A DNA stretch of 60,478 bases, filler included, from Hausera hauseri (taxonomy: Eukaryota), in the NCBI GenBank assembly GCA_046269625.1. It is 10 parts of 10 records of this genome, joined end to end, with 100 filler letters (N's around TTAATTAATTAA, not from the genome) between each part and the next. Parts side by side here need not be neighbours in the genome. Positions count along the whole stretch, not along the records: positions 36,592 to 47,591 come from JBJURY010133317.1; 9 more parts are not named here. The stretch is one strand, 5' to 3'. The notes under the pieces are model-generated. The model saw only the letters and a list, made by a program, of their open reading frames with translations, did not search any database and was not told the origin of the DNA. Positions 32,231 to 53,189 of the stretch are shown here, one piece after another. Positions within the stretch are counted from its first letter, which is position 1. The number at the start of each line of letters is the position of its first letter. The position numbers and the translations under genes were made by a program.

Positions 32231-34229
32231 CCTCTCTGTTTTTTTCTGTTGTCTGGTTTGTTCTTATCGAGTGCGCTGGTCATACATTTATTTGTTTGTT
32301 TCTTTACGGCATACTCTGTATACATTTGTCTCAAGTTTTTTTCTTTACTCCCTAGTCTGTATTAATAAAGTCGAACTTTCCTGTAGCTTTATTAGTCATT
32401 GTACTTGCATGGGGTTTCACCATCATTCCCTGGACACATGATATACTTGTGTGCTTGCGATTTTTCTCTGGCAGGAGTTCTGTGTCAATATTTTCAGTTT
32501 CAATTCTCTCTACTTAGAGATGTCTTAAAGAGAATAAGGGGTGTACAGTCTTCCCAATATTTATGTTAATTTCCCATCTCTGGCAGAAATTAGTAGATTT
32601 TTCAGTTCATGTGCTTCATATTAATGGTTCTTGTGCTTTCTGAAGTTCCAAAGAATGATCAGCTAAAAAGGAAGTCTGTACATGCAAGTTGTCTGGAAAG
32701 TCATTTATGCAGATCAAAAATGGTATGTGGTCAAGTGCCAATTCCTAGGTACTTTGAAAAAATCTCCACAAATTTCTTTCAGCCTTAAATACGGTGATGT
32801 ATCATGTGTCCTTACGTGAACTCTACAGTCCTTCAAAGTGACAACCCACTCGACACTTTTCTCGACACAGAATGAATGGGGGGAAGGGGGGCGCGTGACC
32901 CACATCTGATCCGCTCGATAAACAAATCACGCAAACTGGCAATTAACGTCAAGCTTATGTCAACAGTGACGCCATTCTCCCACCACCAGGTTAATTTAGG
33001 TCAACGGATTGTTTACATAAGTAATCGTTAATTATCTTTGCACTTTTCTGTATTTCCCTCAATTGTTTTGTTAATAAATACAATCTAAGTGGAAATAAAC
33101 TCTCATCACCATCAAACTGATGGGCTTGTTTATTTTATTTAGGCGTTTGGGTGCCAAACAGAATGTTTTGTCATGTTATTGTCGGTTCACGTGTGGTATG
33201 CAAGTTCATGAATGAAAGCTGACAGCGTGAATAGCAAGGGGAAGGGTGGAGGCGATGGGGTGAAAGTACTTGTCAGTAACAAAGGCATGAGCCCTTAAAC
33301 ACGTGGGTCAGCCAAGCCATGGAATGTTTTATCCGATATCCCAGTGTCCTTTTTTTGTCTTTAAGCGATGGTTGGCTGTATTCGGTAAGTTTCATGTATC
33401 TTTCTGAGCCTTCCGTTCAGAAAGGAGAGTTCGCTCGCTTTACATTTTACGTGTTAGGAAAACAGATTTAACACATCAAAAAACCACTTCCGACCAACAG
33501 AGGGTATCAAGATTTAACATATTAAAAAAAAAACCCACTACCAACCAACTCTTATATCAAGAAGGATAAAAGAAATAAGAAAAAAAGATGGCTTTTGGAA
33601 CGGAAATCTACCAAATTAACGCCAACGAGTTTCAGGGTAAGCTTCATAAACCCAACACTATCATGATGACAGCATCCAGTCCCGGAGCATAAAGGATGAC
33701 AAGACATGACAGCAGTGTTATTAGGGCCTGCAGGAGTCGGGAGAAGAGTGTGTTTTCCTTCACACCGGCACAATCGGGTCATCGCCGCCTTTTCTCAGAG
33801 AATTTGGGCCGGTAACCGTTTTTGAGGATGTGGAGGTGTAGTAACATATAGATACGAGTGAGACATAAGACAGCGCACTAAGTAAAAACAAATACATAGA
33901 CACACATAACAACAAGAGACTGTGTTCACATACAAGTAATGTCCGAACATCCAACTCAGTACCAATCCTTAAGACAAAAACATACCCCTTGTCCATCAAC
34001 GTTATCATCAACGCCGTCACTGAAGTAACCCAGACAAACCTCGCCATCATTCCGGTTAATGGGCAGAGGATCACTAAAGTCCCAGTATAATGGTGGATCA
34101 TTTCTTGGAGGCAACTCATTGCACTACCGCCTGGGGGATTTCGGTCCACCTCCTAAACACCACTAAAGTATACTATGGAAGCACCGCACTGTCATTCACT
34201 ATTGAAGATTGATCATGACTAAAGGTAAT

Positions 34230-35020
34230 CGGTCACGGTCATCGCGCAGTATAAGGATTTTTAAAAGTGCAATATTATGAGATCTCAAAGTCGCTGTGCA
34301 CAGAAAATGGTACACATATGTGCCAAAATGGATGCCATTAATTTGTATCGCTTCCATTCTTTGCTACGTCTCTGCCCGACGCTTTTATAATGCAGAAACT
34401 ACTCGGGTTATGGTGACCCCGGACAGTTATCATGGCGACCTATTGCCGGTGCAGCACGGGTGAAAGTTTTTCAGCGGCAATATTACGAAGACTCGATGAA
34501 CGTGTTCATTGAAAATAACATAAACGATAAACAAAATGGATGCAAATACTTAATATCAACTAAAATCGCTGCTACTTTGGAGTAAAAGCTGTAAAAATGC
34601 AGGAAACACCCCGGTATTGCAACGCTTTTGAAGACGTATGATAGTAGTGTTTAAATTTAGAAACGGTACGGTCAAGGTCGTCGCGCAGGATAAGGATTTT
34701 TAAAACTGCAATATTATGAGATCTCGACGTCGGTGTGAACAGAAAATGGTACACATTTGTGCCTAAATGGATGCCATTCATTTGTATCGCTTCCATTCTT
34801 TGCTAGGTGTCTGCCTAACGCTTTTATAATGCAGAAACTACTCGGGTTATGGTGACCCCGGACAGTTATCATGGCGGCCTATGGCCGGTCCAGCACGGGT
34901 AAAACATTTTCAGCGGCAATATTACGAAGACTTAATGAACGTGTTAATTAAAAATAACATAAATGAAAAACAAAATGGATGTAAATATGTAATATCAATT
35001 AAAACCGCTGCTACTTTTAT
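34230..35020. repeat. Diverged direct tandem duplication, period ~439 bp
   Basis: 34230-34580 aligns with 34669-35017, e.g. GCTTTTATAATGCAGAAACTACTCGGGTTATGGTGACCCCGGACAGTTATCATGGCG in both. Confidence 0.9.
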
Positions 35021-36149
35021 GCCGCAACTGTAAGAATGAGGAAAGATGCAAGAGACGTTGATATTCATCATGAGTGATTAAAATAACATAGAAATGATAA
35101 GGAAAGTTTTGGGTCAAATAAACGTGTAACCATGAGTTTCCTGAAATTACCCATACTTGCAGCACATGATTTATGAGGCTCTGTATGCATTGTCATTATA
35201 AATCTAAACGCGTTCCAGGCGAGCTCTAGTAAGAAACAAGTGAAACAGGAGAAATTGCTGTATTTTCACATATACCCTCCTCGTTAGAGCCTCGGTACAA
35301 ATTCTGCCTGCTGAGTTCACGCCAACCAACAGCGTGCCATGAAAAGCCCATATCTTCTGTGTAGACAGCACACGGGAACTAGATCCCAAACCGTTTGGTG
35401 TGCGACGTAGTGGCGGTGAATGAACTAGCGTGTAACGGACGATAGCACCAACCAATTATCTGGCGAGAGTGGCCGTTACCCAACACACTTCCGGATTCAA
35501 AGATGGCGGATTATGTTGAAGTGCCTACCTCCTGTTGTTATACTCTATTCTGAGTTTTCTGTTGCTTGATAAATATATTAATATCTATATTTCCTAATTG
35601 TCCTTCCTTATTCATTTTGTTCCTACAGATGATCCAGATAAACTAGACAAATCTAGATTTGAACAGTGTCTATTGTTTCTTATCCTCATGATGTCTTTTT
35701 GTATTTTTCATAAAGTTTGCAGCATTTTTTGTTGTTGTTGTTTTTAGGTGTCTCGTGAAAATGTCTTTACCAATATGTATAACTTTTTTTTTTTTAAATG
35801 CCATTATTTGTTATAAACAATTTAACCTCAGTTTTGCAAATACCAGTTATATACCAGTTACACCGAGGTTTCTTTCAGTTTGGTAAAACAAAAGTATTCA
35901 TTTAAAGTTTTCAATGTAGCAGGGATTACATAGTAAAACCAACCAGTTCAGTCCACAGTGTAGACAAAATACAAGAACCTGGTTGGAAAGGGTACAATTC
36001 TGGTTAGTCACAATCATACAACGCTAGTGCAGTTCGCATGGATTGACATATGAAATTTGGTGTTTGCCATCTTATAAACTTTGGTGAGACAAGAAAAGAA
36101 ACCTGAATTGTATTTAAAGGCCTGCGCCTTTAAATAATAATGCGCAGCA

Positions 36150-36485
36150 TCTTTCTTCTCTCTCATTTCATTCTTTTTTTTAACATTACAAACCTTTCTT
36201 CTCTCTCATTTCATTCTTTTTTTTAACATTACAAACCTTTCTTCTCTCTCATTTCATTTTTTTTTTTTAACATTACAAATCTTACTTCTCTCTACTTTCA
36301 TTTTTTTTTTTTAACATTACAAATATTCTTCTCTCTCATTTCATTCTTTTTTTAACATTACAAATCTTTCTTCTCTCTCATTTCATTTTTTTTAACATTA
36401 CAAATCTTTCTTCTCTCATTTCATTCTTTTTTTAACATTACAAATCTTTCTTCTCTCATTTCATTCTTTTTTTAACATTACAAAA
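36150..36485. repeat. Pyrimidine-rich minisatellite, ~41-46-bp unit, about 8 copies
   Basis: (TTTCTTCTCTCTCATTTCATTC-Tn-AACATTACAAAYC)n with no unique spacers. Confidence 0.95.
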
Positions 36486-36491
36486 CCGGAA

Positions 36492-36591: not shown

Positions 36592-39290
36592 CTATCAGGC
36601 TCTGGACTGTGGCCGTCAGGTGTGATGACGTGACCAAGGAAATGTACCTTTTTCTGAAAGAAGGAACACTTAGAAAAGTTCACTTGCAAATTGTGGTTGT
36701 GCAAGCGTTGGAAAACTAGTCTGAGATATTCTTCATGTTGTTTGGGCGATGCCGATGCGACTGATATGTCATCAATGTATGACTATATAAACGGCAAGCC
36801 TAAAAAAACTGAAACAATGTGTCGTTGGAAAGTTTGTACTGCGTTCTTTAAACCAAACGGCATGAATGCATATTCGAAAAGACCAAAAGGTATTATGATG
36901 GCCGTTTTTGTGATGTCTTCTGGCGCTACCGGTATTTGGTGGTAAACTTTTTTGAGATCTATGGTAGAATAGATTGTTGTCTTGTGTAAAGAATGTAATA
37001 TATCTTTAATCAAAGGTAGAGGGTAAGCGCCCATAATAGGGAAGTTATTAAGTTGGCGATAATCGCCGCATTGACGGAATGTGCCACATTTTTTGGGAAC
37101 GACGTGGAGTGGTGATGCCCAAGGTAATTTCGAGTGTTTTATTATGCCAGCTGCAGAGAATTCCGCTTGGACTGCCGTCGACGGCGTGGTGAAAGTGGGC
37201 TGAGTTTCTGCCTAACGGGCTTAAAATTTTCTGTGATGACATGATGAAACGTCGTGTTAGCCGGTCGAAATGCTGGGTCTTTTTAATAGTATGGAAACAA
37301 GACTTGACAAAATATTGTTGCATTTCTTGGCTGAGCGTAGTAAAGGTTTGATTGACTTAGTGTAGAAAATGGTAGAAATCGGGCCGCCTAAATCGGAATG
37401 CAACAGAAAAGTAGGATTGTTTATGTTGGTTTTATCAATAATGTTTTTATTCACATTGGTTAAAGGTTTCTTCAAAATTGATTTTATAGTTGAGATAGGC
37501 TGCATGATCGGTTGGTTATTTGTAGGGGTCGGCTTTGTTGAACTGCTTTTAATGACCCGACATTGTTTACAATCTACAAGGAGGTTGTAGAAAGATAAGA
37601 AATCAGACCCAAGTATTGGAGATTGTGTGTCGGCAACGATGAATGTCCAATTGAAAATGTCGGAGAATGGTTGTAAAATGAATGAAATGTTCCACGTGCC
37701 GAAAATGCGTAAAGCTAGCCGTTAGCCGTGTGCAATTTTGTGCTAGATGGAAAGATGCATAATGTTTTAATAGATGGTGATAATATAGAAACAGTTGCCC
37801 CAGAGTCAATTAGGAAGTTGATTGATAAATTGGATTCGGAAGTTAGAGGCTTTCAATGTAAAAACTGTATAAGTACGGCTATCATGATGAAAACGTTTGC
37901 CTGTGCCAGCATGTGCCCAAACATCTGGCGGCTTTGAGTTTTTTGGAGGCACAGGATTTATGTTGTTGGAAAGGGTAGGTCGTGATTAATTAAATCGGTT
38001 AACGAAAGTGCAACCTGTAACCCAGTTTTGTGCTTTAAAATGGAATTTATTGTGCTAAATGCAGATAATATCAGACCGTTTTAAATGGGGAGCACAAAAT
38101 CTGCAACCTAAGCAGCATTTAGTCGAGTTCTTTTTGAATTTGGTGTGGTAGTAACACACCACTGATCGTGTGGGTGATCTTGTATGCCTTGAATTTTTAA
38201 ATGAAGTGCGGCTATGGTTCCGATCGAAATGATTTTGTCTAGGCATGGTCAAAGCTTCGATTTTTGACGTGAGTGCAGAAATTGCTTGATGTATGTTGGA
38301 GTTTTCGGCATGTAAAGTATTTATCTGTGAGTTCAGATTAGCTATGTCTCTAGATTGTGGAATTGTTGGTGCTTGTAACGTAGCGGCTACTAATGGGGCT
38401 GCATGTGCATGTAATATCTCGTGGCTTTTGTCAGCCATTTGTACTAGTTTTTGTAGTGATGATGTGTCCTCTACTATGGTCAGCAGCGCACGTATGTCTC
38501 TGGATAAACACCGCAGAAAATACCTTCGTAGTAAATCGGAGTTATTTGATTGATTAACGCCAACGGTACTCAATTGAGTTAGTGAGGTTTGGAGAAATTC
38601 TGAGGGTTTCAATGCGCTTATGGTGTTGTCGTTAAAATATTTATGGATGGTGTCATCCAGAGATGGTTCGGTAATTTTTAAAATCGAGTTAGTGTTTTGT
38701 ATGGGTCACTACTTTGAAAATTTTCCGACAAGTTAGGAAGCTACGATTTAATTTTGGAAGGCAAAAGTATAAGCAAGCTGTTTGCTTTAAGAAACGAGTC
38801 GACAATATTTGACTTAAATCAAGCCGCATAAAAGTCCAACCACGTCCGGCTGGAATGTTGCCTCTCAAGGAAGTATTCTAAGCAAGGTAGGTTTACAGTA
38901 GACGACGGAGGTAGAATTGAATTTAACGGTACACTTACAGTAGGTATGTCGGCAAAGTTTTATTGATCTTTAGAAGATGCTTTTGGATCAGATCCACCTA
39001 GCAGACGGTAGTGTACGATGAGTATAGGTCTTGAAGATGAGTGGGTGTAACTTGTTATAGTGTCAAATTGTCGGAGAAAAATCCATTATAACTAAAGCAA
39101 AAATTAGCGAGTTGTTTTTCGCCGTAACGCATCTGAAAAATTTGCAATTATTGTTGATTTGTGTATGTAGTAGGTTTGCGTATGCTTATTTTCGAATAAT
39201 AATACGAGAAACGAAAATATCACATAGGTCTGGCGTGCAGTGTGGTGCATAAGACATGGCCGCGCCCAAAATCACTAAGTTGTAATGACT
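36592..39290 (-). mobile_element. Degenerate Ty3/gypsy element 5' half (gag, protease, RT)
   Basis: gag 37940-39060 (KPSEFLQTSL..CYYHTKF..KCCLGC); NFLIDSGATVSIL ~37790-37817; RT YPLP..IDLKKVYHQIP..PFGLFEYAFMPFGLKNA (36783-37034); possible LTR end TTACA at ~39281. Confidence 0.9.
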
Positions 39291-39399
39291 GGCCTGAACA
39301 ACAGGTGCTCCATTATTTATAATAGAAGTATAAACAATGAGATAATACGACTTACTGGTATAATCCGATTTCGGAAAACTGGTGTTTCTTGTGCAGTAG

Positions 39400-40466
39400 A
39401 CTACTGTACCCTAGTTCGTCTGTCATTGCAATTTTTTGGTTAGATCCATGCATACATTTCTGACATGTTTGACACAACACTTCAAATCATGTTTGAACAT
39501 AAATCTTGATGTTCTGCCGATTTCGCTGGTTGATTTTTTTTAAGTTCCGAGGCCCAATAATGACCCGACTTAACCAAGGAAATATCCATAAATTCAGTAG
39601 TTTCAGAAGTATAATCCAAAATGAGCTTATGAAGTTTACGCATGGTATTTGCAATGATCAAATAATTTGCTGAATTTTGATTCATAGTTTGACGAATGTA
39701 ATACAGGAGGATTTCCTTTATCTGCGCTGTCAGAGGATGACTGAATAAAATCCATCGAACCTCGAATGGGCTATTTTCACAACAATAATTTACAATTGCG
39801 GTGCAGCCAATATTTTCTGTTAGATATGATTATTCCTCCGTTCTTTCTTTAAAATCCCCGTTCAGAGGTGGATATTTGTAACTGCGAATGTCGTATAATT
39901 TTTCATGAAAATGCTCACATTTCTCGGAATCTAGCCACACCTCTTGCAGCTAGACGAAACCATCATCAATAACCGTATATGCCAAACGAGCTAAAAGCGA
40001 ACTACCATTCCGCGAATAATCAACTGCATCAAATGTTGGTTGACAGTATGCTGACTTCGATATTGCAGAATTAACTGAAACCCCCGAATTGCTATCATTT
40101 GATGGATCTAAATGCACTGGGTAATTTGTTTCGATGCATTTGTTGGAATATTGTGCCACAGCTACCAAAGAAATCCCGCTGAGCTCTGATCTTGGTTTCC
40201 AAATTATCTTCATTGACTTTAATGATACAGATTGTTCTTTTTTTATTGAGTATCATAGATTCGGTGTCAAGTTTCAACAAATCAGAGTATCTCTGAACTA
40301 GCTTTTCGTTACAGTGACTTAAGATTCGATCAATTACGTCCTTATTTAGATTGGACTTAGCAAATGAAGATGTGCTGGGTGATCGAAACAGTTTGTTTCG
40401 GGTTGTACGTGATAAACTGATTGTGCCATTTAAAAGTTTGAGATATTTGTCGCTTATCAGCATCAC
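39400..40466 (-). pseudogene. Frameshifted continuation of the ZFYVE26/spastizin-like segment
   Basis: PTFDAVDYSRNGSSLLARLA and HPLTAQIKEILLYYI...RKLHKLIL resemble spastizin ALAFLKSRSKLLATVA and WPLESCLEILAYCI...RKLAEL (from memory); split over several frames. Confidence 0.5.
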
Positions 40467-43400
40467 AAAACGATTTGTATTTCATCATAAAAGATAAGTT
40501 GCACTGTAACTCAGTGAGTAAACATTCTGGAGTATAAATATTTAATGGTGGACTTGATGCAGTTCCATTAATCATTCCAAAAATAAGTAGCGTCTGTAAC
40601 GTACTTCCATTAACCCTATATCGCTCCTCCAGTTGATTAGCAAGAAATGGTACTGAATTTTTCAAATCAAAATCGCAAAATGTTACATCTGGAATATTAA
40701 GGAAACATTGACTGACTTGATCAATACTAATGTTTCCCAAATTACCAATTTTGTAAGAGAATCCACATTTCAAAAGCTTAGAATTCAGACTCCGATATTT
40801 GAAAGTATTTTTTTCTTCCTGAACTGCTAAAATTAGCATATGGATAACCATAATATTGTGAAGATTTAAAAAGAAAGCTGCTTTCTCTTCATTGGAATTT
40901 AATAAATTCAAATCCACATGAACCAGATCCATTATATCTATTGCTGAAAATGTCTTCCAATCGTCTTCATAATAAACGGTGGATATTGCTTTACAGTTGA
41001 CCTCTAGAATTACCGATGAAGGTTTTACGTAGGCGTTATCGGGTTTTGATAAGTATTTGTAAGAGCTTTTAGTCGATTCTTTTGATTTAGAATTTCGCAA
41101 AGATTCTTTGGCTGAATCCTTTGTTCGTTGACTTGATCCACTAGATGTGGATGAAGCTGTGGAAAATGCTTGAAATGACGACTTTTGTGATTCCCGTTGA
41201 TCTATTATAAGCGTCGTATCGCCGTCATAAAATGGTAAATCTGACAGATTTGAAAGAGAAGAATTTTTCATTAATAATTTGATAATCGTTTTCAAACAAT
41301 TAGTGACAACTGTCAAAGGATTCAATGTAGTTTCAGAATCAATGACTTCAGCAGGAACATTGTATACAAAGTTTTGATAAAACCGATGAGATTCAGCAGA
41401 AGAATTATCAATTGTCTCAATGCAGCTGATATGCGGAAGGCAATTTCCAAGAATAACTTCGGAAACATTTAATCCCAATTCTAAACATAATTGTTGTATT
41501 TCAGTGCTTTTAGGACTAATTGATTTGAGTGGAGATGTTTTTAATAAACTAAATTCGTGACGTAATTGGGGTGCTGTACTATTTGATACATTTTTATGTT
41601 TTCTTAAGAATGTTACAAACGTTTCAAGATGCACATTTAACAAGTCCAAATACAAATGAAAATCCCGACGCAAATACCTGTACGGAACATTATCAATTTC
41701 AACAAGCACACAATTTTCCTTAATAAATTGTATGAGAATTAGAAGAGAATCCCAACGACTGTCAGAATCCGAATTGAGATCTCTATTATTAACACTCTCA
41801 GTAATATTCGAATTTAAAGACATGAAATTGAATCGAAGTTCATTGGACCACTTTTGGAAACTGACGGAATATTTCTGATCGACAATGGAATGTAGTTCCA
41901 AATCGGCATATGTTATGTGATCACTTTCGTCAATATTTGCAAAGCATTCCTTAAGCTGTTTAATGACAGGACTCAACCCAACGTATCGGTGGTATTGTAA
42001 CTGATCCGAAGATTTTAAAACCTGATCATTTAAATGGGGAACATCTAGCGACTGTAAATGTAAATCAATTTTTTTCAACATCTTTAAGAATTGCCATCTC
42101 GTTTTCGAACCGCAGATCATAATGTCAAATAGAAGACCAGCATCAAATAATATCTGGTCGGTATTTAATTTCGTTGCATTCAATTCTGAATTCTTGAGAG
42201 TTGGCCTGTCTTTCGAACTCAATGTCAATAGCCTGTTTGCAAACTCAGCTATTTCATTTTCCGTTTTCGACGCTAATTTTCGATTCAAATTTGAAATATC
42301 ACCCCAATTAAAATGACCGAACTCAGTTGATTTTGATTCAGTGTAATCGGTTTCAGAATTTTGCAGTACACCATCTGGTGGTTTAAGAGCACTAAGATTT
42401 TCTCTGAAGTTTTCAAAAGTGTCTCTATATTTGATTTCCGGTAACAAAACTTGCAATGATTCAATCGGTTTTGGTGAAACATTATTATTCACCACGGGTG
42501 GGGGGACACACGATGGAGCTAAAGATCTAAATACATTAACTCGAATAGCTTCACTGAGACCAAATCGGACGCAACCGATCATTTTATCCTTCATTGTAGG
42601 CATGTATAAATTAACTGTCTTTATGATAAAATCAATGAGAGTAATACTCACATTGGAATACTTGGTAAGGTTATGCATAATGGCCAAAATGGCAGGTTCA
42701 ATATCCATAATACAATCGTATTTGCTATCATAAAATAACCAGTCATAAATGAGCGCTAATTTACAATTGGCAACAACTGTTGATGACGAAGCCTGGACAA
42801 TTAACCAGGATATTGTCGCCCATTGAGAAATCAATGTAGACCCGATCATTTCGTTATCGGGATAAAAATAACGAATAATGTATCGAATCAAAAACGGTCG
42901 GAGATTTTGACTTTCCGGTGTAGAAAAGAATCTTTTGCTAATGAAATCCTGATATTTCTTGTATGGATTTGATGAACAGTGATGGACATTTCTCATCGTC
43001 CATAAAATCCATGCTTCCATATCATATTGTATTGATGTAGATATGATGTTTTTATTAGTTCCAATGCTAAATATATCACTGACATTGGTAAACTGGTTAG
43101 ACATCGATTCAATATTCTGGCAAATATCGTTCCAAAGACCTTTAAACTCTGGAATATTGGACACCTGTTGAATCATAAACATCATATCTCTCCCACCCGG
43201 TTTAAAACACTCATCAAAATTGTTTTTAATGATGTCCAAAACTAAATTGATTTCTTTTCGACATAAACGAGCAAGAGTATTGTTGGGAGTATGCGACAAT
43301 AATTTTCGGTCTTTAATAATTGGCTCTTTATATTCTTCGATGAGATTGAGCATGTTTTCTATTAGCCATAAATTTGATTGTGTTAAATCACCCGATATCA

Positions 43401-46400
43401 TCCGTTTAAATGCAGAACTAAATAAATTTTCAGCCCATGGAGTGTTTAATAAATCTATCAAAAGATTGAGAATATTTGATCGCACGTCATTAGTAATTCG
43501 ATTCCAATATTTGATTTCCGTTAACAAATCTTCAAAAAGATCATTGGTTGGTGTCGATTTAAAAGTTTGTACTATATCACCGGCTTTATTCTTGAACCCA
43601 TAAAGTAGTGTTTTCATGGTTAAATATTCAATAGGCTCGACAATCCATTGCATACACATAAAAAGGTGATGACTCATTCTTTTACTTTGAAATCGTTTAG
43701 CTTGAGTCTTCATATGGATATAAAGTTTATTTCGATCATTATTACTGCAATTATCACATTCACAGCTTTTTACCATACCACAATAGGTTTTATCAAAATG
43801 CTCGCCAAAATAACCAAGAACCTGAGATCGTCTACAGTCAATTGAATTGTCACAGAAAAAGGCCATTTCATAAAGTAACATGAAATTCTGACATTTAAAT
43901 TCAGGCGTACCGTTACTCATATTTAATAATGTTTTCCATGTTAATATGTCCGACCAATTGTAGTACAGCACACAAACAGCTGGAAGACCATCTCTTCCAG
44001 CACGTCCTGTTTCTTGATAATATCCTTCCAACGATTTAGGTACCGAATGGTGAATAACGAATCTCACGTCTGGTTTATCAATACCCATACCAAATGCAAT
44101 TGTAGCACAAACAATTTTACAATCGCGTTCGTTTAGCCACATTTTCTGAATTGTTTTCCGTTGAACATTAGTCATACCTGCATGGTACGGCTGGGATTTG
44201 AGACCAGCTTTTTCTAACTTGTCAGACACAATGTGACAGGCTTGACGACTCAGGCAATACACAATTCCACTCTGATCGTGGAATTTCGTTTTAATCAAAT
44301 GAATTATTTCTTTCATACAGTCACGAGATTTTTGATGAATCTCCCACCGTAAATTTGGTCTATTAAAACTTTGGATGAACCATTTGGCGTTTCTCATTTT
44401 CAATTGAACGATTATATCTTGTCGAACTTTTCTTGTAGCTGTGGCAGTCAAAGCCAAAATCGGAACGGTTGGAAATCGTTCACGTAGACATCGCAAGCTG
44501 CCGTGATCCGGCCTAAAATCATGACCCCACATACTGATACAATACGCTTCATCGATAACAAATCGATCGAGGAGATTTCGCTTGTACAGCGATTGAAAAA
44601 TTTGTAACACCCGTTGACAAGCTACAATCTTCTCTGGAGTAATATAAATCAATTTAATATCCATTTTGTCACTTTGGAGAATGTCTAGAACAGTATTCAC
44701 TTCCTTTGTAGATACATCTGAAGTTAAGGATTTCGCGTTAATGTCAAAACTCTGAAGTTTCATCAATTGATCGTGAACCAAGGACTTTAGAGGAGAAATT
44801 ACGACGGTGAGACCATCGGTTACAATACTTGGTAGTTGATAAAACAAAATTTTTCCACCACCAGTCGGCATCAAAACGAATGTATCGAACTTTAACAAAA
44901 CCGAATTGATTGCCGCCCGTTGATTTCGACGGAAATATTTTAAACCGAAAACCTCTCGAAATGCTTGCATCATTTTCGGAGTATGGGGAAAATCTTTAGA
45001 GAATTCACCAGTTTCACCATCGTTTGGATGTTCTTCTATTGAAGTAGCTGCATGATTGCACTGACTAACATTTGTCCATCGATTTTTGGTAATGGGCACA
45101 AACGTGTCACCATCCATATTAGCGCTTCGCTTTGTATTTTTCAATGAAATTTCTTCAAAGTCTTTTAACATGAACGAATTGAAAATAGAATCGTTTTCCC
45201 AACAGTCTTCATTTTTCAGTTTTGTTGACGTATTGGAAGAAAATGTATTGAACGTTTGTCCGAGAATGGCGATCAATGAATTATTCAAATCGAAATCGAA
45301 TGGTTGCGAATGACTCGTAAAAAACTGATCTAAAGTGTCCAAAATAATCAAATAATTCTGAACTGCTACGGAATTTTTCATGAACAGCATCCAACACATA
45401 TTGAAACTTAAAATTTTGAGAACTGTTTTGGAAAATCGATAGCCTTTTGTTTCTTCAAAATTATTGGAGCGAGAAGTACAACTGTAGAATCGTTTTTCCA
45501 AGCTAATAAGACTCATCAAAATTTTTGCCATTTTCTTAGACGTTGTTCTGTCTCCACGAACAAGATGTTGATAAATCATTGATTCCAAATACGCTGTGAC
45601 GGTAATAAGTAATTTTAAAACTTTCTCACTCCTCGGTTTTAGATCATTTAAGTACATCACTATTATAATATCGAGACTGCATCGAATAACCAATGGTTTT
45701 GGTACTTTTGATACCGTTTTACCAACCATTACTTTTAATAATCGTTTGTGGAATTTCGGATTCCTTAATATTGCCAGTCGCTGTGATCTTTCATTATGGA
45801 CCGAGAGAGATGGTTTGATGAATTTACGTAGCGCAATTGACAGAGATTTAATATGGAAGAACGAGGCATCGCATTTACCGTATTCAGATTCTTTAGCACA
45901 TGAATCGGGAGAACCAAGTGAAACCCCACTAGATTTTGAAGGCAACGCTCTCAATTTAATGTAAATTGCATAGTGTCTGGATCTGGACTTAATCAATTCT
46001 GTACTGGTCATTGGTAAAAATATCGGAGTTGTCGCTATTTCGTATTGAATGAAATCCAACACTTGATTCAGCCGATCAGCAAAATCTTCCTGTTCGACAA
46101 CGAGCAATTCCGGAATTGCAGGGTTGACAATCGAAATTGGACTATCTGTCTTGTCCAACAATTTACTTTGAGGTTTAAATGAATTAAGATCACATGGAAC
46201 AGAATCCCCAGAGTGATGGAGAGTCGTCGATTTCTTTTCATTGCGCTTATCCGGTACAATGGAGTAGAAGGCTAATTCAACATTTTCAGACATGAGACAC
46301 ATTCGATCCATGTCAGCAAACACCATTATGCTCAATAATGATTCCGGAAGTTCTTTATTTGAAAGAATTTTCATACCTAATTCAGCCATTGATTTTAAAA

Positions 46401-46656
46401 CACAATCCGGACTGGAAAAATTAGTTGATAACGAATATAAAAACAGTTCATTTCCAAAAGTGATGAATAAAAAATTAAAGGATTTATTCGAAACGGTTTT
46501 AACGATAGAAAGTATAACTCCGGAAGGTTGTGTTTCGTCGGCATTTGTCGTGCTAGACGATTCGGAACAATTTGACTCGAGGAGATCAATGTTTATCTGA
46601 CACCAATTTAGATGAAACGCAAATTTCTCATTATATTCCATCGGATAGACTAACAA
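40357..46656 (-). CDS. Intronless 2099-aa mosaic ORF: BIRC6-like, BLM-type RecQ core with RQC Zn finger, INTS3 N-terminal domain, ZFYVE26-like/DUF547
   Basis: RecQ: FREVFGLKYFRRNQ, MPTGGGK, DEAY, WGHDFRPD, ATIAFGMGIDKPDVR, YYQETGRAGRDG, CRR..YFGE..CDNC. INTS3: GRD..VSNIPEF, FSTPESQNLR, KLALIYDWLFYD, IMDIEPAIL. DUF547: EKAAFFLNLHN, GTASSPPL. BIRC6-like: ERSQRLAILRNPKFHKRLL, GDRTTSKKMAKIL. Confidence 0.88.
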   Translation of the reverse strand: MLVYPMEYNEKFAFHLNWCQINIDLLESNCSESSSTTNADETQPSGVILSIVKTVSNKSFNFLFITFGNELFLYSLSTNFSSPDCVLKSMAELGMKILSNKELPESLLSIMVFADMDRMCLMSENVELAFYSIVPDKRNEKKSTTLHHSGDSVPCDLNSFKPQSKLLDKTDSPISIVNPAIPELLVVEQEDFADRLNQVLDFIQYEIATTPIFLPMTSTELIKSRSRHYAIYIKLRALPSKSSGVSLGSPDSCAKESEYGKCDASFFHIKSLSIALRKFIKPSLSVHNERSQRLAILRNPKFHKRLLKVMVGKTVSKVPKPLVIRCSLDIIIVMYLNDLKPRSEKVLKLLITVTAYLESMIYQHLVRGDRTTSKKMAKILMSLISLEKRFYSCTSRSNNFEETKGYRFSKTVLKILSFNMCWMLFMKNSVAVQNYLIILDTLDQFFTSHSQPFDFDLNNSLIAILGQTFNTFSSNTSTKLKNEDCWENDSIFNSFMLKDFEEISLKNTKRSANMDGDTFVPITKNRWTNVSQCNHAATSIEEHPNDGETGEFSKDFPHTPKMMQAFREVFGLKYFRRNQRAAINSVLLKFDTFVLMPTGGGKILFYQLPSIVTDGLTVVISPLKSLVHDQLMKLQSFDINAKSLTSDVSTKEVNTVLDILQSDKMDIKLIYITPEKIVACQRVLQIFQSLYKRNLLDRFVIDEAYCISMWGHDFRPDHGSLRCLRERFPTVPILALTATATRKVRQDIIVQLKMRNAKWFIQSFNRPNLRWEIHQKSRDCMKEIIHLIKTKFHDQSGIVYCLSRQACHIVSDKLEKAGLKSQPYHAGMTNVQRKTIQKMWLNERDCKIVCATIAFGMGIDKPDVRFVIHHSVPKSLEGYYQETGRAGRDGLPAVCVLYYNWSDILTWKTLLNMSNGTPEFKCQNFMLLYEMAFFCDNSIDCRRSQVLGYFGEHFDKTYCGMVKSCECDNCSNNDRNKLYIHMKTQAKRFQSKRMSHHLFMCMQWIVEPIEYLTMKTLLYGFKNKAGDIVQTFKSTPTNDLFEDLLTEIKYWNRITNDVRSNILNLLIDLLNTPWAENLFSSAFKRMISGDLTQSNLWLIENMLNLIEEYKEPIIKDRKLLSHTPNNTLARLCRKEINLVLDIIKNNFDECFKPGGRDMMFMIQQVSNIPEFKGLWNDICQNIESMSNQFTNVSDIFSIGTNKNIISTSIQYDMEAWILWTMRNVHHCSSNPYKKYQDFISKRFFSTPESQNLRPFLIRYIIRYFYPDNEMIGSTLISQWATISWLIVQASSSTVVANCKLALIYDWLFYDSKYDCIMDIEPAILAIMHNLTKYSNVSITLIDFIIKTVNLYMPTMKDKMIGCVRFGLSEAIRVNVFRSLAPSCVPPPVVNNNVSPKPIESLQVLLPEIKYRDTFENFRENLSALKPPDGVLQNSETDYTESKSTEFGHFNWGDISNLNRKLASKTENEIAEFANRLLTLSSKDRPTLKNSELNATKLNTDQILFDAGLLFDIMICGSKTRWQFLKMLKKIDLHLQSLDVPHLNDQVLKSSDQLQYHRYVGLSPVIKQLKECFANIDESDHITYADLELHSIVDQKYSVSFQKWSNELRFNFMSLNSNITESVNNRDLNSDSDSRWDSLLILIQFIKENCVLVEIDNVPYRYLRRDFHLYLDLLNVHLETFVTFLRKHKNVSNSTAPQLRHEFSLLKTSPLKSISPKSTEIQQLCLELGLNVSEVILGNCLPHISCIETIDNSSAESHRFYQNFVYNVPAEVIDSETTLNPLTVVTNCLKTIIKLLMKNSSLSNLSDLPFYDGDTTLIIDQRESQKSSFQAFSTASSTSSGSSQRTKDSAKESLRNSKSKESTKSSYKYLSKPDNAYVKPSSVILEVNCKAISTVYYEDDWKTFSAIDIMDLVHVDLNLLNSNEEKAAFFLNLHNIMVIHMLILAVQEEKNTFKYRSLNSKLLKCGFSYKIGNLGNISIDQVSQCFLNIPDVTFCDFDLKNSVPFLANQLEERYRVNGSTLQTLLIFGMINGTASSPPLNIYTPECLLTELQCNLSFMMKYKSFCDADKRQISQTFKWHNQFITYNPKQTVSITQHIFIC

Positions 46657-46671
46657 TGAATAACAAATTGT

Positions 46672-47270
46672 TGTAGTTCAAAACACAAATTGACTTTATT
46701 TATTGATTGATTCTTGAATACAATATTTTTATATTTAACACTAAAGCTGAATGTTCTCTTTGTTTGTCTTCTGAAACAAATAAAAATCTTCCAGTGTGGC
46801 CGAAGCCAAATCTGTGCAAAAAGTCTCATCTGGCAGCGACACCAAGCCGTCCAGAGAAATGTAGCCGGGCTGGGTCGGGTCATATTGAGCCTTTCCAAGA
46901 TACTCCAGAAACAGGTGGCGCTCTCTGAGACGCAAGAACTTAGTGTTGAGCACCTAAATGCAGAAAGTGGAGTGTTATTTCTAAATTTAGATTAAAAAAT
47001 CAGTTTCAATAGACACTAAATGTACAGAGGAAATGAGAGATATAGGACACTGTAGTTGATTTGCCTGTCAGCAGAGTTAGACTTAGTTCTTGAAGTGCAG
47101 AAAAGGACAACAGTAATGCTACAGTCTTATAATTGTGCATCTTGCTTGTAGTCTGTGGCTTTAGTATGCATCCGTGGTCATTTTCTGGAGTGGCCATTCA
47201 CAGCCTAGTGATTAGTAAATGAAGTAAAGTTATTAAAATAAGGAAAAGAAAATGCACAGAATGTATTACA
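46672..47270 (-). repeat. Possible LTR-like element immediately upstream of the mosaic ORF
   Basis: Minus strand ends AATAAATAAAG...ACTACA at 46672 and may begin TGTAAT at 47270; no matching target-site duplication. Confidence 0.3.
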
Positions 47271-47591
47271 ATAGGCAAGATTATTTCATATCCATGGGAC
47301 GCTGAGACTTTAGATTGTTATCACGATCTTAGCCAGGGCCAGGAACCAACATACAGGCCAAGATCTTTCAACACTTCACGCAGTGTGTCCTGGAAACAGA
47401 AGCAATTCTGGCTAACGTTGGTAGGATCGTCATGGTCCCCAGTTGAGAGATGAATCACTTCTAGGAGGCCAAGCATTGCACTAAAGTCTGGAGGACTTCG
47501 GTTCACCCTACTAGACTCCACTGGGACAGAAGGAATGCTCAACACAACTGCTCCAGAGTCCTTCTTAGTCCCTTATCAGGGCTTATCCGGA

Positions 47592-48148: not shown

Positions 48149-48316
48149 TGAAACCTCAGGAGGAGGTATATTTATGCTCAAAGCTTGAGGTAGAGCCGTA
48201 CTGTGATAAACATTGTCATTTACATTCTGTATCTAAAATTACAATAATATTAGAACAAAATAATAACTAAAAACCTCATTAAAATTCTGGGCCAATCTCC
48301 GAAAATCCACTCTGTT

Positions 48317-49525
48317 TTATTCCAAAAAATCATCCCGACTACCGTCAGTTCGGTACAACATAAAATCGCCGAGATCATATATGAGGCACCGCTTCAAACA
48401 CGCTTCCTTCTGGCTCAAATCCATATGCCTCGGCCAAAAATTTAGTTGGCTATTATAAGTGAAGATGACAGGAACAGCCGAAGGCACAACTACAGATTTG
48501 TACAATCTCCTAATTGAACGATTGTCATTAGGGTGATTACACTGGATGATAGACAGAAAGATGTCAGGGCACACGTCACCAAAGCCGACGTCATCGAAGA
48601 CCAACAAGTCAAACTCCCCACTCCACTCAGAAGGAGTATCGTGTAAGAAGTGCAAAACAAGAGGATTGGTTCCCTGCGAGATGGCATAAAAAGTTTTGCC
48701 TATATTAGATGAACTGAAAATAAGGGCAGAATTGACACCTCTATTTAAATCAAAGGCAATGGGCGGAAGTGTAAATTGAAGTTCCCTATTGACAGACACT
48801 TTAGGCCTAAATTTGGCACTTACGTACGATGTTAGCATTTTATTCCTGGTGACAAATTCAGCCCTGTCACCTTCCTTCATTATGGCCATGGCATCATTAA
48901 AAGTTGGGGCCTCATCAAACATGCGATACAAAGCCTTTCGGCTCGTATTGTCCTTCGCAATGTCGATGGGAGGTACCCCAAATTCCATTACTAAAGAGTT
49001 TAACTTCACTTCCTTGCAGTGGTATTTGTATACAGCAAATACGTCATTCCTAAATGGTATAACATACTGCAAATCGAAAACGGACTTAAATCTACTAAGG
49101 CGCATCGGGTTTCTTATATAAAATAAAAGATGTAGGTGCCTAAATCCACTAGGACTGACGTCCTCTACAATTTTACAGTAAGCGTGATACGTTATTAATT
49201 TACGTAATAAACAACAAACATAAGTTACAACATCAGAATTTAATGGGAAATCAATAACACACATAAAATGCCTAAAAGTGGCACCAACTGGTGGTAAAAC
49301 TAACTCACCAATGGAAGACGGAAAGCGTGTTTGAAGTGCATGTGCAATTTCGTTATCGGCATTTGGGAAAAGTAGAACATAGCTGTCAACGGCATTTTGA
49401 ATAGTGAAGTTGCGACCGTAACCCTGCATGAAATAAATATATTAAACAAAATAACAAATACTAACGATTTGATTCCTTTCAGCCCTGGAAACCAAGACAT
49501 TTTCGTTATTTGAAGATTCAGACAT
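48317..49525 (-). CDS. rep: CRESS-DNA-virus-type Rep (HUH endonuclease + SF3 helicase), spliced, 388 aa
   Basis: Motif I-like FMCVIDFP, motif II RHLHLLF, motif III YKYHCKE, Walker A SSSNIGKT, Walker B LLVFDD, motif C IFTYN, Arg-finger-like ACLKR. Exon 1 49466-49525 (MSESSNNENVLVSRAERNQI), 42-nt GT-AG intron 49424-49465, joins in frame; AATAAA overlaps the stop. Confidence 0.88.
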
Positions 49526-49533
49526 GATTTTTA

Positions 49534-49581
49534 ATATGAGGCCATGTATAAATTACAATAAATTTATACATGATCTCATAT
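49534..49581. repeat. 21-bp inverted repeat (2 mismatches, 6-nt loop) just upstream of the Rep ATG
   Basis: ATATGAGGCCATGTATAAATT-acaata-AATTTATACATGATCTCATAT. Confidence 0.85.
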
Positions 49582-49681
49582 CATTGGAATATGTCAACAC
49601 AATAAACAACACAAATAATAAATGCAAATCAAATAAATTAAACAAATATACATACCTAATCTGAAACTTTCTTCACTTCTT

Positions 49682-49759
49682 TGAGTTATGAGCACCAATA
49701 GGAATAAGTTACTATATACATACTATATGTACTACATTCCTATTGGTTCTCATTACTCA
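49682..49759. promoter_or_regulatory. 24-bp inverted repeat carrying two opposed CCAAT boxes (divergent promoter or origin hairpin)
   Basis: TGAGTTATGAGCACCAATAGGAAT ... ATTCCTATTGGTTCTCATTACTCA with inner TACATA-cta-TATGTA; ACCAATAGGAAT recurs at ~51339. Confidence 0.7.
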
Positions 49760-49968
49760 TTACTTTTCTAAAGATTACAAGAAGATAAAGGAATTACACA
49801 TAAAGAAACCAATTTATATACTTACATTTGTAAGTAGTATATAAAAATAATTATTAAAATATGAGTAATAAGGCCTAGATGCCTTGTTTAAAACGAAAAT
49901 TAAAACAAGAAGCACATGACACAACTGCAAACATCATTTTTAAGAAATTCCAAGAATAAAAAGGATAA

Positions 49969-50238
49969 ATGGTAAATATTTATAATTTTTCATAAATTAA
50001 TATATTTAAGGCACCATTTGCCGATCAAAACAGATTCTATAAAATTCTTCTAAAGAAAATCATGGAAATTAACAAAGATATAAAATTAAAGAAAAAAGAA
50101 ATTAAAAAACTTAATTCCGAACTACTACAAAACGACAATTGCGCGCTTAGCCACAAATTCTGGCTCAATAGAATGAGACTACTGAATGCCCGCCTAGACA
50201 AAATACAAGATATACAATGGGATAAAGAAAAAATTTAA
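49969..50238 (+). CDS. Small basic coiled-coil protein, spliced (76 aa), missed by the ORF track
   Basis: ATG 49969-49971, 39-nt GT-AG intron 49972-50010, then open APFADQNRFYKILLKKIMEINKDIKLKKKE...WDKEKI*; AATAAA downstream. Confidence 0.5.
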
Positions 50239-50587
50239 ATAATCGACAATTTGTATGATTGTGATATTAATCCAATGTTTGAAAATCAATATTCTGAAAT
50301 TTTATATATTGAATAAATATTTGTACGCGTTCATTTTCTTCCTTTTAAATCTATATAAAAAATTTCTTTTAAATAAAAAAATGAGCACAATAAAAAAGTT
50401 AAATTAAAAAAATGTACAAAAAAGTACTATAAGCGTATAAAAAATCCCACCCACACCTACCCAATATACGGCTGCATACGGTGGGAATCAAGTAATAAAA
50501 CACACAAACTTCTTTATACAAAAATATGTAAACATTGAAGAACCAATAGACAAAACCAATTTTATTATTAAAAAATATATACAATTG

Positions 50588-50944
50588 TTATCCTGCTGCA
50601 AGTTTTCCATTATTAACATATTCATCCACAACAGCAATTTGCGTATACAAATTATTCAGATCAATATATCGATTTCTTCTGCATTTGACTAAAACAATCT
50701 GCTTCTCACCATCAATTCCAACATCGTATATCTGTATGTCCCTTTTCCAATCTGCATTGATGAAATTGAAATACATATTATCAGTCCATTGAAGAACACA
50801 TGGAACTGATAAAGTCAGCATTATTGTGTCATGGGACAAATATGAGAAATCCAAAAGTGTTAAGTAGTATGTATTTGGTGTTTGCATTTTCAGTCTTATA
50901 CAATATAAGTTACGTATATATAGTTTTACAGTGTATGTATGCAT
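50588..50944 (-). CDS. Hypothetical beta-rich protein
   Basis: Intact ORF (likely start MQTPN at ~50887) followed by AATAAA. Confidence 0.55.
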   Translation of the reverse strand: MHTYTVKLYIRNLYCIRLKMQTPNTYYLTLLDFSYLSHDTIMLTLSVPCVLQWTDNMYFNFINADWKRDIQIYDVGIDGEKQIVLVKCRRNRYIDLNNLYTQIAVVDEYVNNGKLAAG

Positions 50945-50993
50945 CCAATAAAAATCATTGAAGAATATAATACATATTTATTTATATAACATC

Positions 50994-51275
50994 TCAGTCT
51001 TCGTCTGATTCTTCATCCCTCGCATCCATCCATACTGACCACCATGCACTGTGGTATTCATCTCCCTCGATGGTATCCAATGTCGATATCCGACAGCGCA
51101 TAAAACGCTTGTCTCCATAGAAAACGTCTGCAAAGTTCGTACTTCTTCTGCATACTGGACATGACTTGTTAATGTTAATCCACTGAATGAAACAATTGTA
51201 GCAGTGTCGATGAATGCAACTGGCCATACACGCATTGAATGACGTACAAGTTTCCAAACAAATAGAGCAGTTCAT
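50994..51275 (-). CDS. Small C3HC4 RING-finger protein (putative E3 ligase) with acidic tail
   Basis: CSIC-x-CIHRHCYNC..W....SCPVCR; TATATAAAG ~30 nt upstream; AATAAA after the stop. Confidence 0.88.
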   Translation of the reverse strand: MNCSICLETCTSFNACMASCIHRHCYNCFIQWININKSCPVCRRSTNFADVFYGDKRFMRCRISTLDTIEGDEYHSAWWSVWMDARDEESDED

Positions 51276-51409
51276 CTTTTAACACTGAGTTTAAGTTTTC
51301 TACACTTTATATAGTATTTCTCATACTAATAAGAATCAACCAATAGGAATTAAGACACACACATGAAAAGTATATATACCGTATTAGTTTGTCATAATTT
51401 GAAAACAAA

Positions 51410-51748
51410 ATGATTGAAGATATTGTACAAGGTTCAAATCAAGGGCGATTTAATTTCCCAGTAATTGATAGTGACATAGCATATGGGTTTCCGCTCAAAT
51501 TACAAAGATGGACAATGACTGACAATGGCATAAGAATCAACATTAGTCCAAACAGTATTGAAACAAATGTACGTTATCAGATAGCTCTGGATAAAAGATT
51601 TTTCAGTGGAATGAAACTATTGTACGCGTATTATGATGATGAACAATTCATTATCAGTTTGGAAACAAACGAAGTCGAACAATGCGACAAGTTGGATAGC
51701 AAAATTGGATCAAGAGTGGGTTGTTTAAGAGTTATTGCTATAATTTAG
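51410..51748 (+). CDS. Hypothetical beta-rich protein
   Basis: Intact 112-aa ORF with CCAAT and TATA upstream, A-rich start context and AATAAA right after the stop. Confidence 0.65.
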   Translation: MIEDIVQGSNQGRFNFPVIDSDIAYGFPLKLQRWTMTDNGIRINISPNSIETNVRYQIALDKRFFSGMKLLYAYYDDEQFIISLETNEVEQCDKLDSKIGSRVGCLRVIAII

Positions 51749-52076
51749 TTTAATAAATGTTTGTGTCAAATTTGTGTGCTTATTTTTACAAAAGCTTTTA
51801 GGTGAAAATATTATATGGATATTTATTAAATCAAATATTATGGATAATTATTATGTCGACAAAATATAAAGTACAATTTTTCAAATATTACAATCATATT
51901 TCAACACACACATTACAAAGGCAGTAAGTAAAATGAAAAACGTATAAATAAAACAACACCAATAAGTCAAATGAAAACATGATAAAGCAAAACATGATAA
52001 GACAAAAACACAAGACAAATCAATAATTTTGGCCCTGAAGAGGACCGTTTAACATTCTCATCATCACTTCTTTTAT

Positions 52077-53128: not shown

Positions 53129-53189
53129 TGTAGTTTTGTCGATTGTAATAATGACAAAATAATGACAAACACTTCTTTATATACTCTAA

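What the first reader, a model, noticed from the sequence alone, without database searches (positions are those of the whole stretch)
39400..46656. Intronless 6.3-kb ORF stitching four unrelated host genes in frame (BIRC6, BLM, INTS3, ZFYVE26)
Seen: one stop-free frame contains an internal BIRC6-like block (~46640-45200; no BIR or UBC), a BLM-type RecQ core plus RQC Zn finger (~45050-43740; no winged helix or HRDC), the INTS3 N-domain (~43670-42380) and a spastizin-like/DUF547 block that continues, frameshifted, to ~39400. All pieces are truncated, in sense orientation, in frame and intron-free, although another gene in the window has an intron about every 100 nt. It lies just 5' of a same-strand gypsy element and just 3' of an LTR-like end. 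Inference: serial RT template switching among cellular mRNAs (multi-mRNA capture), with selection for an open frame. BLM and INTS3 (SOSS complex) both act in DNA end processing, so a functional fusion is conceivable. RecQ and INTS3 calls are strong; BIRC6 and ZFYVE26 rest on remembered motifs.
Basis: partly seen in the sequence, partly recalled or inferred. Interest (0 to 1): 0.86.

Follow-up and report, generated by a model that had tools for sequence, protein, structure and literature searches.

The report
Flatworm gene mosaic beside fish DNA
A 6.3-kb unbroken reading frame strings together pieces of at least three, likely four, different genes (one of them flatworm-type) just ahead of a retrotransposon and occurs in several versions with whole pieces missing; it was likely assembled by the retrotransposon's copying enzyme in a flatworm that likely lives on fish, and its direct join to a fish gene is more likely an assembly error than a real gene transfer.

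Summary
The ORF is real: 2,106 codons, 46677-40357, minus strand. BLM core and INTS3 N-domain are confirmed. BIRC6 is probable (sole PDB hit, E 0.06-0.1). The last block has DUF547; ZFYVE26 is unsupported. Three corrections. (1) The window is ten joined contigs, so the intron-rich gene is unlinked. (2) The 'LTR-like end' is the last exon of a teleost MTERF3 gene, broken off one codon early. (3) The INTS3 piece is flatworm-type, not fish (AU p 1e-6). Two public runs hold the mosaic at 98.6-100% identity. In one, depths and joints show several copies, some lacking the BLM block or the INTS3 core by multiples of three. A 26-nt repeat flanks the INTS3 core. TRAF and TRRAP pieces sit ahead of other copies of the same CsRn1-type gypsy family. 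Helicase motifs I and II are altered, so a working BLM-INTS3 enzyme is unlikely. Best reading: serial mRNA capture by template switching in a fish-associated flatworm, with selection for an open frame; like maize Bs1 and planarian Burro. LTRs, primer site and parent genes were not found. The fish join is probably chimeric; real transfer is not excluded.

The parts
47231..47591 (.). Interspersed repeat in CpG-poor DNA at the contig end (class not determined)
   Evidence: summed depth 222,699 in run X1, 413 in X2; CpG o/e 0.39; 75% match over 85 nt to 34081-34164
46954..47230 (-). Teleost-type intron ending in a TTTAG acceptor
   Evidence: sequence; CpG o/e 0.12
46764..46953 (-). Last coding exon of teleost MTERF3; homology stops one codon before the usual end (FQKT, then 7 other residues to a stop at 46741)
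   Evidence: PDB 3m66 E 3e-21; 75-90% identity to the 120 listed proteins; 111 of 120 end FQKTL; X2 contigs stop aligning at 46764
46642..46763 (-). AT-rich leader holding the fish/non-fish join (most likely at or near 46764)
   Evidence: X1 mosaic-level depth extends to about 46700-46765 by bin arithmetic; inference
40357..46677 (-). Mosaic ORF, 2,106 codons stop to stop, 2,094 aa from the ATG at 46641
   Evidence: covered in every bin by run X1, summed depth 27.7-131
45240..46641 (-). Probable internal BIRC6 fragment (matched part 45712-45966, human residues about 1264-1342)
   Evidence: only PDB hits, E 0.057-0.11; below significance
43733..45239 (-). BLM block: acidic lead-in, RecQ core and Zn-binding part (matched 43738-45000); motif I GGGKIL, motif II DEAY, MWGHDF where human BLM has GGGKSL, DEAH, QWGHDF
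   Evidence: a joint in X1 (depth 44.4) skips exactly this block, 1506 nt
42442..43653 (-). Flatworm-type INTS3 N-terminal part with internal in-frame deletions (a 20-residue conserved helix; a longer gap near the start)
43507..43532 (-). 5' copy of a 26-nt near-repeat (24/26) that flanks the INTS3 core
   Evidence: 0 of 200 codon shuffles hold such a repeat
42427..42452 (-). 3' copy of the 26-nt near-repeat; the joint 42426-43507 (1080 nt) is seen in both runs
40357..42426 (-). Helical block of unknown parent with DUF547 at 40501-40896 (ZFYVE26 unsupported)
   Evidence: Pfam E 1e-14; no match
39420..40481 (-). Broken coding-like tail in three short frames (40481-40095, 40252-39950, 39829-39482); 7-14% different from the forms in X1 and with other indels
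   Evidence: no family match
39089..39419 (-). Spacer before the gag start; no primer-binding site found
   Evidence: an X1 contig (39302-39802, depth 5.8, 34 differences) runs from the tail into it
36592..39088 (-). Decayed CsRn1-type Ty3/gypsy copy: gag with CX2HX9CX3C at 38156, protease, reverse transcriptase cut by the contig end
   Evidence: (RVT_1 E 7e-30); 68% identical to the copy at 1-2006

Best explanation
The ORF is an intron-free, in-frame mosaic of a BLM helicase core, a flatworm-type INTS3 N-domain, a DUF547 block and a likely BIRC6 fragment, present in several variant copies, and was likely built by repeated template switching of a CsRn1-type gypsy reverse transcriptase onto cellular mRNAs in a flatworm that likely lives on or in fish. 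Shown: the frame, the two strong identities, the flatworm affinity of INTS3, the variants, the junction repeat, the adjacent gypsy copy. Inferred: (1) cellular mRNAs were packaged with element RNA and copied piecewise, round after round; the BLM block looks like a late insert, since one variant lacks it at its natural borders, and the 26-nt repeat looks like a switch back onto a copy that already had the short INTS3 join; (2) only products with an open frame passed through further rounds, most likely because RNAs with early stops are destroyed or not packaged, so the frame is selected and the enzyme activities are not; (3) the join to the fish MTERF3 exon is a chimera of host and parasite DNA in this contig.
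For: Variants: INTS3-bearing depth 27.7 plus skip joint 75.7 = 103; BLM-bearing 68.8 plus skip joint 44.4 = 113; flanking bins about 110. 4 of 5 listed joints in the ORF have net lengths 1080, 1506, 207, 93. Junction repeat 24/26, 0 of 200 shuffles. X1 contigs of 857 and 887 nt run unbroken through INTS3 and BLM, so the lack of introns is not special to this assembly. Same arrangement elsewhere in the window: intron-free TRAF-like ORF ahead of a gag fragment with a 57-nt exact repeat at its junction and a decayed TRRAP piece ahead of another copy (E 1.2e-4). Flatworm origin: 33 named flatworm rows in the top 34 of 57 hits, tree 100/100, fish clade rejected p 1e-6, shared 3-residue insertion. 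Residence in an unmethylated genome: ORF and five gypsy stretches have CpG o/e 0.93-1.13 against 0.12 in the fish intron; no CpG excess among gypsy differences (0.30 vs 0.24 and 0.25 vs 0.33). In X2 the mosaic is patchy at depth 0-7 while the fish exon is at 23, as a co-sequenced minor organism would give. Mechanism in print: PMC5131818.
Against: No LTR pair, primer site or polypurine tract around the mosaic. Parent genes not seen, so intron loss and junction microhomology with parents are untested; INTS3 N-domains without long introns occur in genomic contigs of other eukaryotes (e.g. L014, L017). None of the 16 listed pieces spans the three junctions as the window has them; three of the four in-frame joints are flagged 'between: not known', one listed joint skips 1 nt, and 25 of 40 joints were not shown. 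X1 depths also fit BLM and the INTS3 core never sitting in one copy. gag depth is about 30 times the mosaic's in X1, so most gypsy copies lack this cargo. Only INTS3 was placed on a tree, on a long branch with odd composition, and no monogenean or free-living flatworm was in the set. The fish exon is at depth 2.2 in X1, but the tool drops human-like contigs, so that depth cannot fix the base level.
Confidence: 0.55

Rival explanations
1. The flatworm-type mosaic and its gypsy neighbour are truly inserted into the last codon of MTERF3 in a fish genome (parasite-to-host transfer of captured genes).
For: Fish exon and acceptor intact; the frame runs on 7 residues to a stop with AATAAA about 40 nt later, so the gene could still work. 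Both runs hold fish-type MTERF3 and the mosaic. No tandem repeat at the join that would invite a mis-join.
Against: Mosaic-to-fish-exon depth is about 45:1 in X1 and 1:6, patchy, in X2. The decayed gypsy copy shows no CpG loss. No LTR at the join. Neither run shows the join among listed pieces.
Confidence: 0.13
2. DNA-level origin: a stretch of neighbouring, intron-poor flatworm genes was fused by successive in-frame deletions and duplicated, and the gypsy copy is just a neighbour.
For: Internal in-frame deletions are common in it; no retro hallmarks found; intron state of the parents unknown.
Against: All pieces share one orientation; the BLM-less variant breaks at the block's natural borders; the 26-nt duplication is not what simple deletion leaves; TRAF and TRRAP pieces lie on the element's strand ahead of other gag copies.
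Confidence: 0.15
3. The pieces and pairwise joins are real, but the four-part version is an assembly collapse of variant copies (one with BLM, one with the INTS3 core).
For: X1 depths allow the two blocks to be mutually exclusive (68.8 <= 75.7 and 27.7 <= 44.4); the tail is 7-14% from X1 while the core is 99.5-100%; the contig already joins two organisms' DNA.
Against: Depth is continuous over the 225 nt between the two joints; recombination between copies would give the same product in nature.
Confidence: 0.12
4. A functional BLM-INTS3 fusion protein acting in DNA end processing.
For: 2,094-residue frame kept open; both parents act on single-stranded DNA ends (recalled).
Against: Motif I GKS to GKI, DEAH to DEAY, QWGHDF to MWGHDF; DEAY and MWGHDF lie inside an X1 contig with 0 differences; INTS3 lacks a 20-residue helix present in the relatives; about 40% of X1 depth lacks BLM and about 70% lacks the INTS3 core.
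Confidence: 0.05

Closest known systems
LTR-mediated chimeric retrocopies in animals (Tan et al. 2016, PMC5131818; 12 passages and section 12 read)
   Same: Partial, intron-free gene pieces next to LTR-element sequence; two or more parent genes; further rounds of copying; short similarity at switch points.
   Different: Here three or four parents in one 2,094-residue frame with modular variants; no flanking LTRs found; parents not seen.
Maize Bs1 (as described in PMC5131818; the original papers were not held)
   Same: Hybrid ORF from several unlinked cellular genes carried by an LTR element in a few copies.
   Different: In Bs1 one of three pieces is out of frame and copies share their switch points; here the identified pieces are in frame and copies differ by whole blocks; animal, not plant.
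Planarian Burro/GYPSM1 giant gypsy elements (PMC6431247 section 7 read; passages of PMC13465017)
   Same: Flatworm gypsy elements that stitch host-derived domains (TRAF/MATH, BIR, ankyrin, BCL2-like, midasin) into one very long frame.
   Different: Burro has a CCHC gag at the N-terminus with host domains between gag and pol, thousands of copies, and a reported function for its IAP part; here the cargo is a separate frame upstream of a CHCC gag, in few copies, with altered catalytic motifs.
CsRn1 clade of Ty3/gypsy (PwRn1, PMC2582038; 10 passages read)
   Same: CX2HX9CX3C gag signature, gag-pro-RT order, flatworm host.
   Different: tRNA-Trp primer site and matching LTRs not found; copy decayed; cargo upstream of gag is not described in the passages read.

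Membership tests
LTR-mediated multi-gene retrocopy (Bs1 type) | Partial pieces of two or more unrelated cellular genes | tested here: met
   BLM, INTS3, DUF547 block
LTR-mediated multi-gene retrocopy (Bs1 type) | Flanked on both sides by LTR-element sequence | tested here: not met
   3' side gypsy; 5' side is a fish exon after a 120-nt leader; the true 5' flank may be lost at the join
LTR-mediated multi-gene retrocopy (Bs1 type) | Introns of the parent genes are missing | tested here: inconclusive
   pieces are intron-free here and in X1; parent genes not available
LTR-mediated multi-gene retrocopy (Bs1 type) | Short similarity at switch points | tested here: inconclusive
   26-nt repeat at one junction, 5 nt at another, 0 at two; parents needed for a full test
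LTR-mediated multi-gene retrocopy (Bs1 type) | Secondary copies | tested here: met
   variant joints and additive depths in X1
CsRn1 clade (adjacent element) | Gag CX2HX9CX3C | tested here: met
   38156 (-), also 1055, 962, 24365
CsRn1 clade (adjacent element) | tRNA-Trp primer site and LTR pair | tested here: not met
   no site within 3 substitutions at 39000-39900; 3' end cut by the contig; copy is decayed
CsRn1 clade (adjacent element) | RT tree placement | not tested
   no reference RT sequences in hand
Burro | CCHC gag at the N-terminus of a polyprotein holding host domains, env and pol | tested here: not met
   cargo frame is separate and upstream of a CHCC gag
Active RecQ/BLM helicase | Intact motif I (GKS/T) and motif II (DEAH) | tested here: not met
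   GKI and DEAY
BIRC6 fragment | Significant similarity to BIRC6 | tested here: inconclusive
   sole PDB hit, E 0.057-0.11; fold model unusable
ZFYVE26/spastizin fragment | Similarity to ZFYVE26 or a FYVE domain | tested here: inconclusive
   no match; whether ZFYVE26 was among the searched sequences is not known

The most novel reading that the evidence does not exclude
A flatworm retroelement has built a 2,094-residue mosaic from four host mRNAs and carried it across phyla into a fish chromosome, landing in the last codon of MTERF3: parasite-to-vertebrate transfer of nuclear gene pieces, with a CsRn1 family that routinely ships fragments of long housekeeping mRNAs (BIRC6, BLM, INTS3, TRAF, TRRAP).
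Probability: 0.12. Interest if true: 0.92.

Novelty: new variant of a known kind. Interest (0 to 1): 0.6.

Why it matters
If the best reading holds, this is a natural series in which exon shuffling by a retroelement can be followed step by step: copies with and without whole gene blocks coexist in one sample, and the frame stays open although the captured enzyme looks dead. That makes a standing question testable: whether long chimeric ORFs (Bs1, Burro) first arise by selection on the RNA for an open frame, before any protein function. It also flags a contig that joins fish and flatworm-type DNA, which is either a contamination warning for this assembly or a rare animal-to-animal gene transfer.

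Tried and rejected
No whole genome is held, so parent genes could not be sought. No RNA holder listed; no evidence on expression either way. Single-sequence folds of the N- and C-terminal blocks were unusable (pLDDT 35 and 32), so no fold search was run. Atlas look-ups gave leads under 0.9 only (DUF547 0.78; propeller-like proteins 0.83). The one representative hit for the N-block is an unrelated repeat protein. Scans of metagenome contigs: C-block 0 of 96 candidates; INTS3 alignment 145 of 198 candidates, best 80 kept, none above 49% identity. Viral contigs: nothing in 4 scans. Rfam: 0 matches in the contig. Earlier findings: none in 3 look-ups. Flanks at 2010-3802, 59401-60475, 19781-21400 and 13100-14003 gave no usable family match. 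A bare 14-nt repeat is not significant (48 of 200 shuffles); only the 26-nt form is. X2 bins without cover are not read as absence. Papers: 0 hits for CsRn1+monogenea+retrotransposon and spastizin+DUF547; 1 for retrocopies+flatworm+LTR+chimeric, 3 for HGT+flatworm+fish genome+retrotransposon+parasite, 3 listed for DUF547+FYVE, 20 listed of 31; listings only, none describes this mosaic by title or abstract start. Subscription papers and supplements were not seen.
Full report
Setting. The window is ten contigs of 4-11 kb joined by N44-TTAATTAATTAA-N44 linkers. The finding lies in the eighth, 36592-47591. Genes on other contigs are not linked to it and need not be from the same organism. No whole genome is held.

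The ORF. One frame runs from 46677 to 40357 on the minus strand without a stop, 2,106 codons, first ATG at 46641. Pfam finds DEAD, Helicase_C, RecQ_Zn_bind, Ints3_N and DUF547 in that order. The helicase is closest to BLM among solved structures (452 bits against 338 for RECQ1) and aligns without long gaps over about 420 residues. The N-block returns only BIRC6 from 177,635 PDB sequences, at E 0.11 and 0.057. The C-block has DUF547 (E 1e-14) and no other match; ZFYVE26 stays an unsupported lead.

Whose genes. The INTS3 piece hits flatworms first: 33 named flatworm rows in the top 34 of 57 (200-292 bits); the best other animal scores 199. In a tree of the window piece and 30 of those 57 (left out: further Schistosoma, Taenia-like and pipefish near-duplicates and two short fragments) it groups with flatworms at 100/100, unresolved against the trematode and cestode clades, on a long branch with unusual composition. 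With 17 of the 57, a clade with fish is rejected (AU p 1e-6). It shares a 3-residue insertion with flatworms that fish and beetle lack. The donor is therefore a flatworm, probably neither a sampled trematode nor cestode; a monogenean or a parasitic turbellarian is my inference. The other blocks were not placed on trees.

The 5' neighbour is a fish gene. 46953-46764 is the last exon of MTERF3 after a TTTAG acceptor. Of 201 candidates 178 passed; the 120 listed are MTERF3 at 75-90% identity and every named row is a teleost but one, labelled lamprey. 111 of 120 end in FQKTL; the window reads FQKT and then seven other residues. X2 contigs stop aligning at 46764. The intron has CpG o/e 0.12, the ORF 1.13. 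No LTR match or primer site lies 5' of the ORF or before gag. So the contig joins teleost DNA to flatworm-type DNA about 120 nt ahead of the ATG.

The 3' neighbour. After a broken tail and a 330-nt spacer comes a decayed gypsy copy on the same strand, with protease and RT and the CX2HX9CX3C gag signature that defines the CsRn1 clade in PMC2582038. Related copies lie on contigs 1, 3, 5 and 10.

Independent runs. Two runs hold the stretch; both are contig sets, laid once at 80% likeness. X1 covers every bin of the ORF (27.7-131). Its five listed pieces inside the ORF differ at 0-4 places in 527-887 nt; two X2 pieces differ at 2 of 303 and 5 of 363. Of 40 joints 15 were shown, five inside the ORF: skips of 1080, 1506, 217 with 10 letters between (net 207), 93 and 1. 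Four are multiples of three, three of them flagged 'between: not known'. The 1080 skip removes the INTS3 core and is in both runs; the 1506 skip removes the BLM block from its acidic lead-in to four residues past the last zinc ligand. Depths add up: 27.7 + 75.7 = 103 and 68.8 + 44.4 = 113, against about 110 in flanking bins. This fits four or five copies of about 20-27 each, though summed depth is no copy number. None of the 16 listed pieces crosses the three junctions in the window's arrangement, so the four-part form itself rests on the window. The tail differs from X1 by 7-14% with other indels, so its breaks may be special to this copy.

Junction anatomy. A 26-nt repeat with two mismatches lies at 43507-43532 and 42427-42452; 0 of 200 codon shuffles hold one. 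The 5' copy is native INTS3; the 3' copy begins where INTS3 similarity ends. The simplest account is a switch from a longer INTS3 template back onto a copy that already carried the short join. INTS3 also lacks a 20-residue conserved helix and a longer stretch near its start, both in frame. On contig 3 an intron-free TRAF-like ORF precedes a gag fragment that ends in a 57-nt exact repeat of upstream sequence. On contig 5 a decayed TRRAP piece (E 1.2e-4) precedes another copy on the same strand. Flanks of contigs 1 and 10 gave no match: 3 of 5 contigs with this family have an identified gene piece ahead of gag.

Function. Motif I reads GGGKIL, motif II DEAY and the aromatic loop MWGHDF, where human BLM has GGGKSL, DEAH and QWGHDF. 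The last two lie inside an X1 contig with no differences. That the motif I serine binds magnesium is recalled. With copies lacking either block, a working BLM-INTS3 enzyme is unlikely. The frame is what is kept. My preferred cause is selection on the RNA: a product with an early stop is degraded or not packaged and drops out of further rounds. This is inference; the parallel with in-frame defective viral RNAs is recalled and was not looked up.

The fish join. Five decayed gypsy stretches have CpG o/e 0.93-1.02, and their mutual differences show no CpG excess. That teleost repeats lose CpG and that flatworms have little CpG methylation is recalled; on that basis the element decayed outside a fish genome. 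In X2 the fish exon is at depth 23 and the mosaic patchy at 0-7; in X1 the exon is at 2.2 and the mosaic near 100, with the caveat that human-like contigs are filtered. The gag-to-mosaic ratio is similar in both runs (31 and 12), the repeat-to-mosaic ratio is not (2032 and 113). A co-sequenced flatworm explains all three samples. A real insertion is not excluded: the fish gene could still work and no simple repeat marks the join.

Comparison. Multi-gene capture by template switching is described for animals, and Bs1 for maize (PMC5131818; passages and section 12 read). Planarian Burro elements put many host domains into one frame (PMC6431247 section 7), one with a reported function (passages of PMC13465017). 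This locus works like those but is not filed as a member: flanking LTRs were not found and the Burro layout is absent. What is new is the length, the in-frame modular variants in one sample, a CsRn1-type partner and the fish join. The searches showed no description of it in their listings.

Verdict. Real feature, mechanism partly supported, new variant of a known kind; interest 0.6. Real transfer into a fish genome: probability 0.12, interest 0.92.

Noticed in passing
window 13100-15468 and 12499-13121 (-): Intact intron-free TRAF-like ORF (RING, zinc finger, MATH; 15270-13942), a second serine-rich frame, then a gag fragment ending in a 57-nt exact repeat of 15371-15427; a likely second mosaic, set into an ankyrin-repeat remnant.
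   Followed up: partly
window 26440-26740 (-): Decayed TRRAP fragment (PDB E 1.2e-4) upstream of another CsRn1-type copy on the same strand.
   Followed up: partly
   Followed up: partly
window 2010-3800 (-) and 59400-60478: Coding-like decayed DNA directly beside gypsy copies; on contig 1 it abuts the gag start. No family match.
   Followed up: partly
window 48300-54220: A 374-aa ORF (49441-48317) that looks like a small-DNA-virus replication protein (recalled; no Pfam hit), further ORFs and two short inverted repeats, between CpG-poorer flanks.
   Followed up: no
window 5565-10124 and 15569-19679: Two decayed copies, 75% identical, with frames that look like Polinton-type DNA polymerase B (recalled, not searched).
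   Followed up: no
window 27065-32024 (-): Gypsy-like element (protease Pfam hit) with cysteine-rich frames upstream of the protease ORF that look like an envelope protein (recalled, not searched).
   Followed up: no
window 56226-57400 (+): Tc1/mariner-like transposase remnant (recalled motifs) between the RT and the RNase H/integrase parts of a gypsy copy, next to a 10-N gap; CpG o/e 0.48.
   Followed up: no
window 34230-34968 and 36128-36490: A 300-nt duplicated unit holding TGGTGACCCC, and a 43-nt tandem array at the contig end.
   Followed up: no
P0094: An MTERF3 labelled lamprey is 83% identical to the teleost-type exon, which suggests a mislabelled or contaminating record.
   Followed up: no
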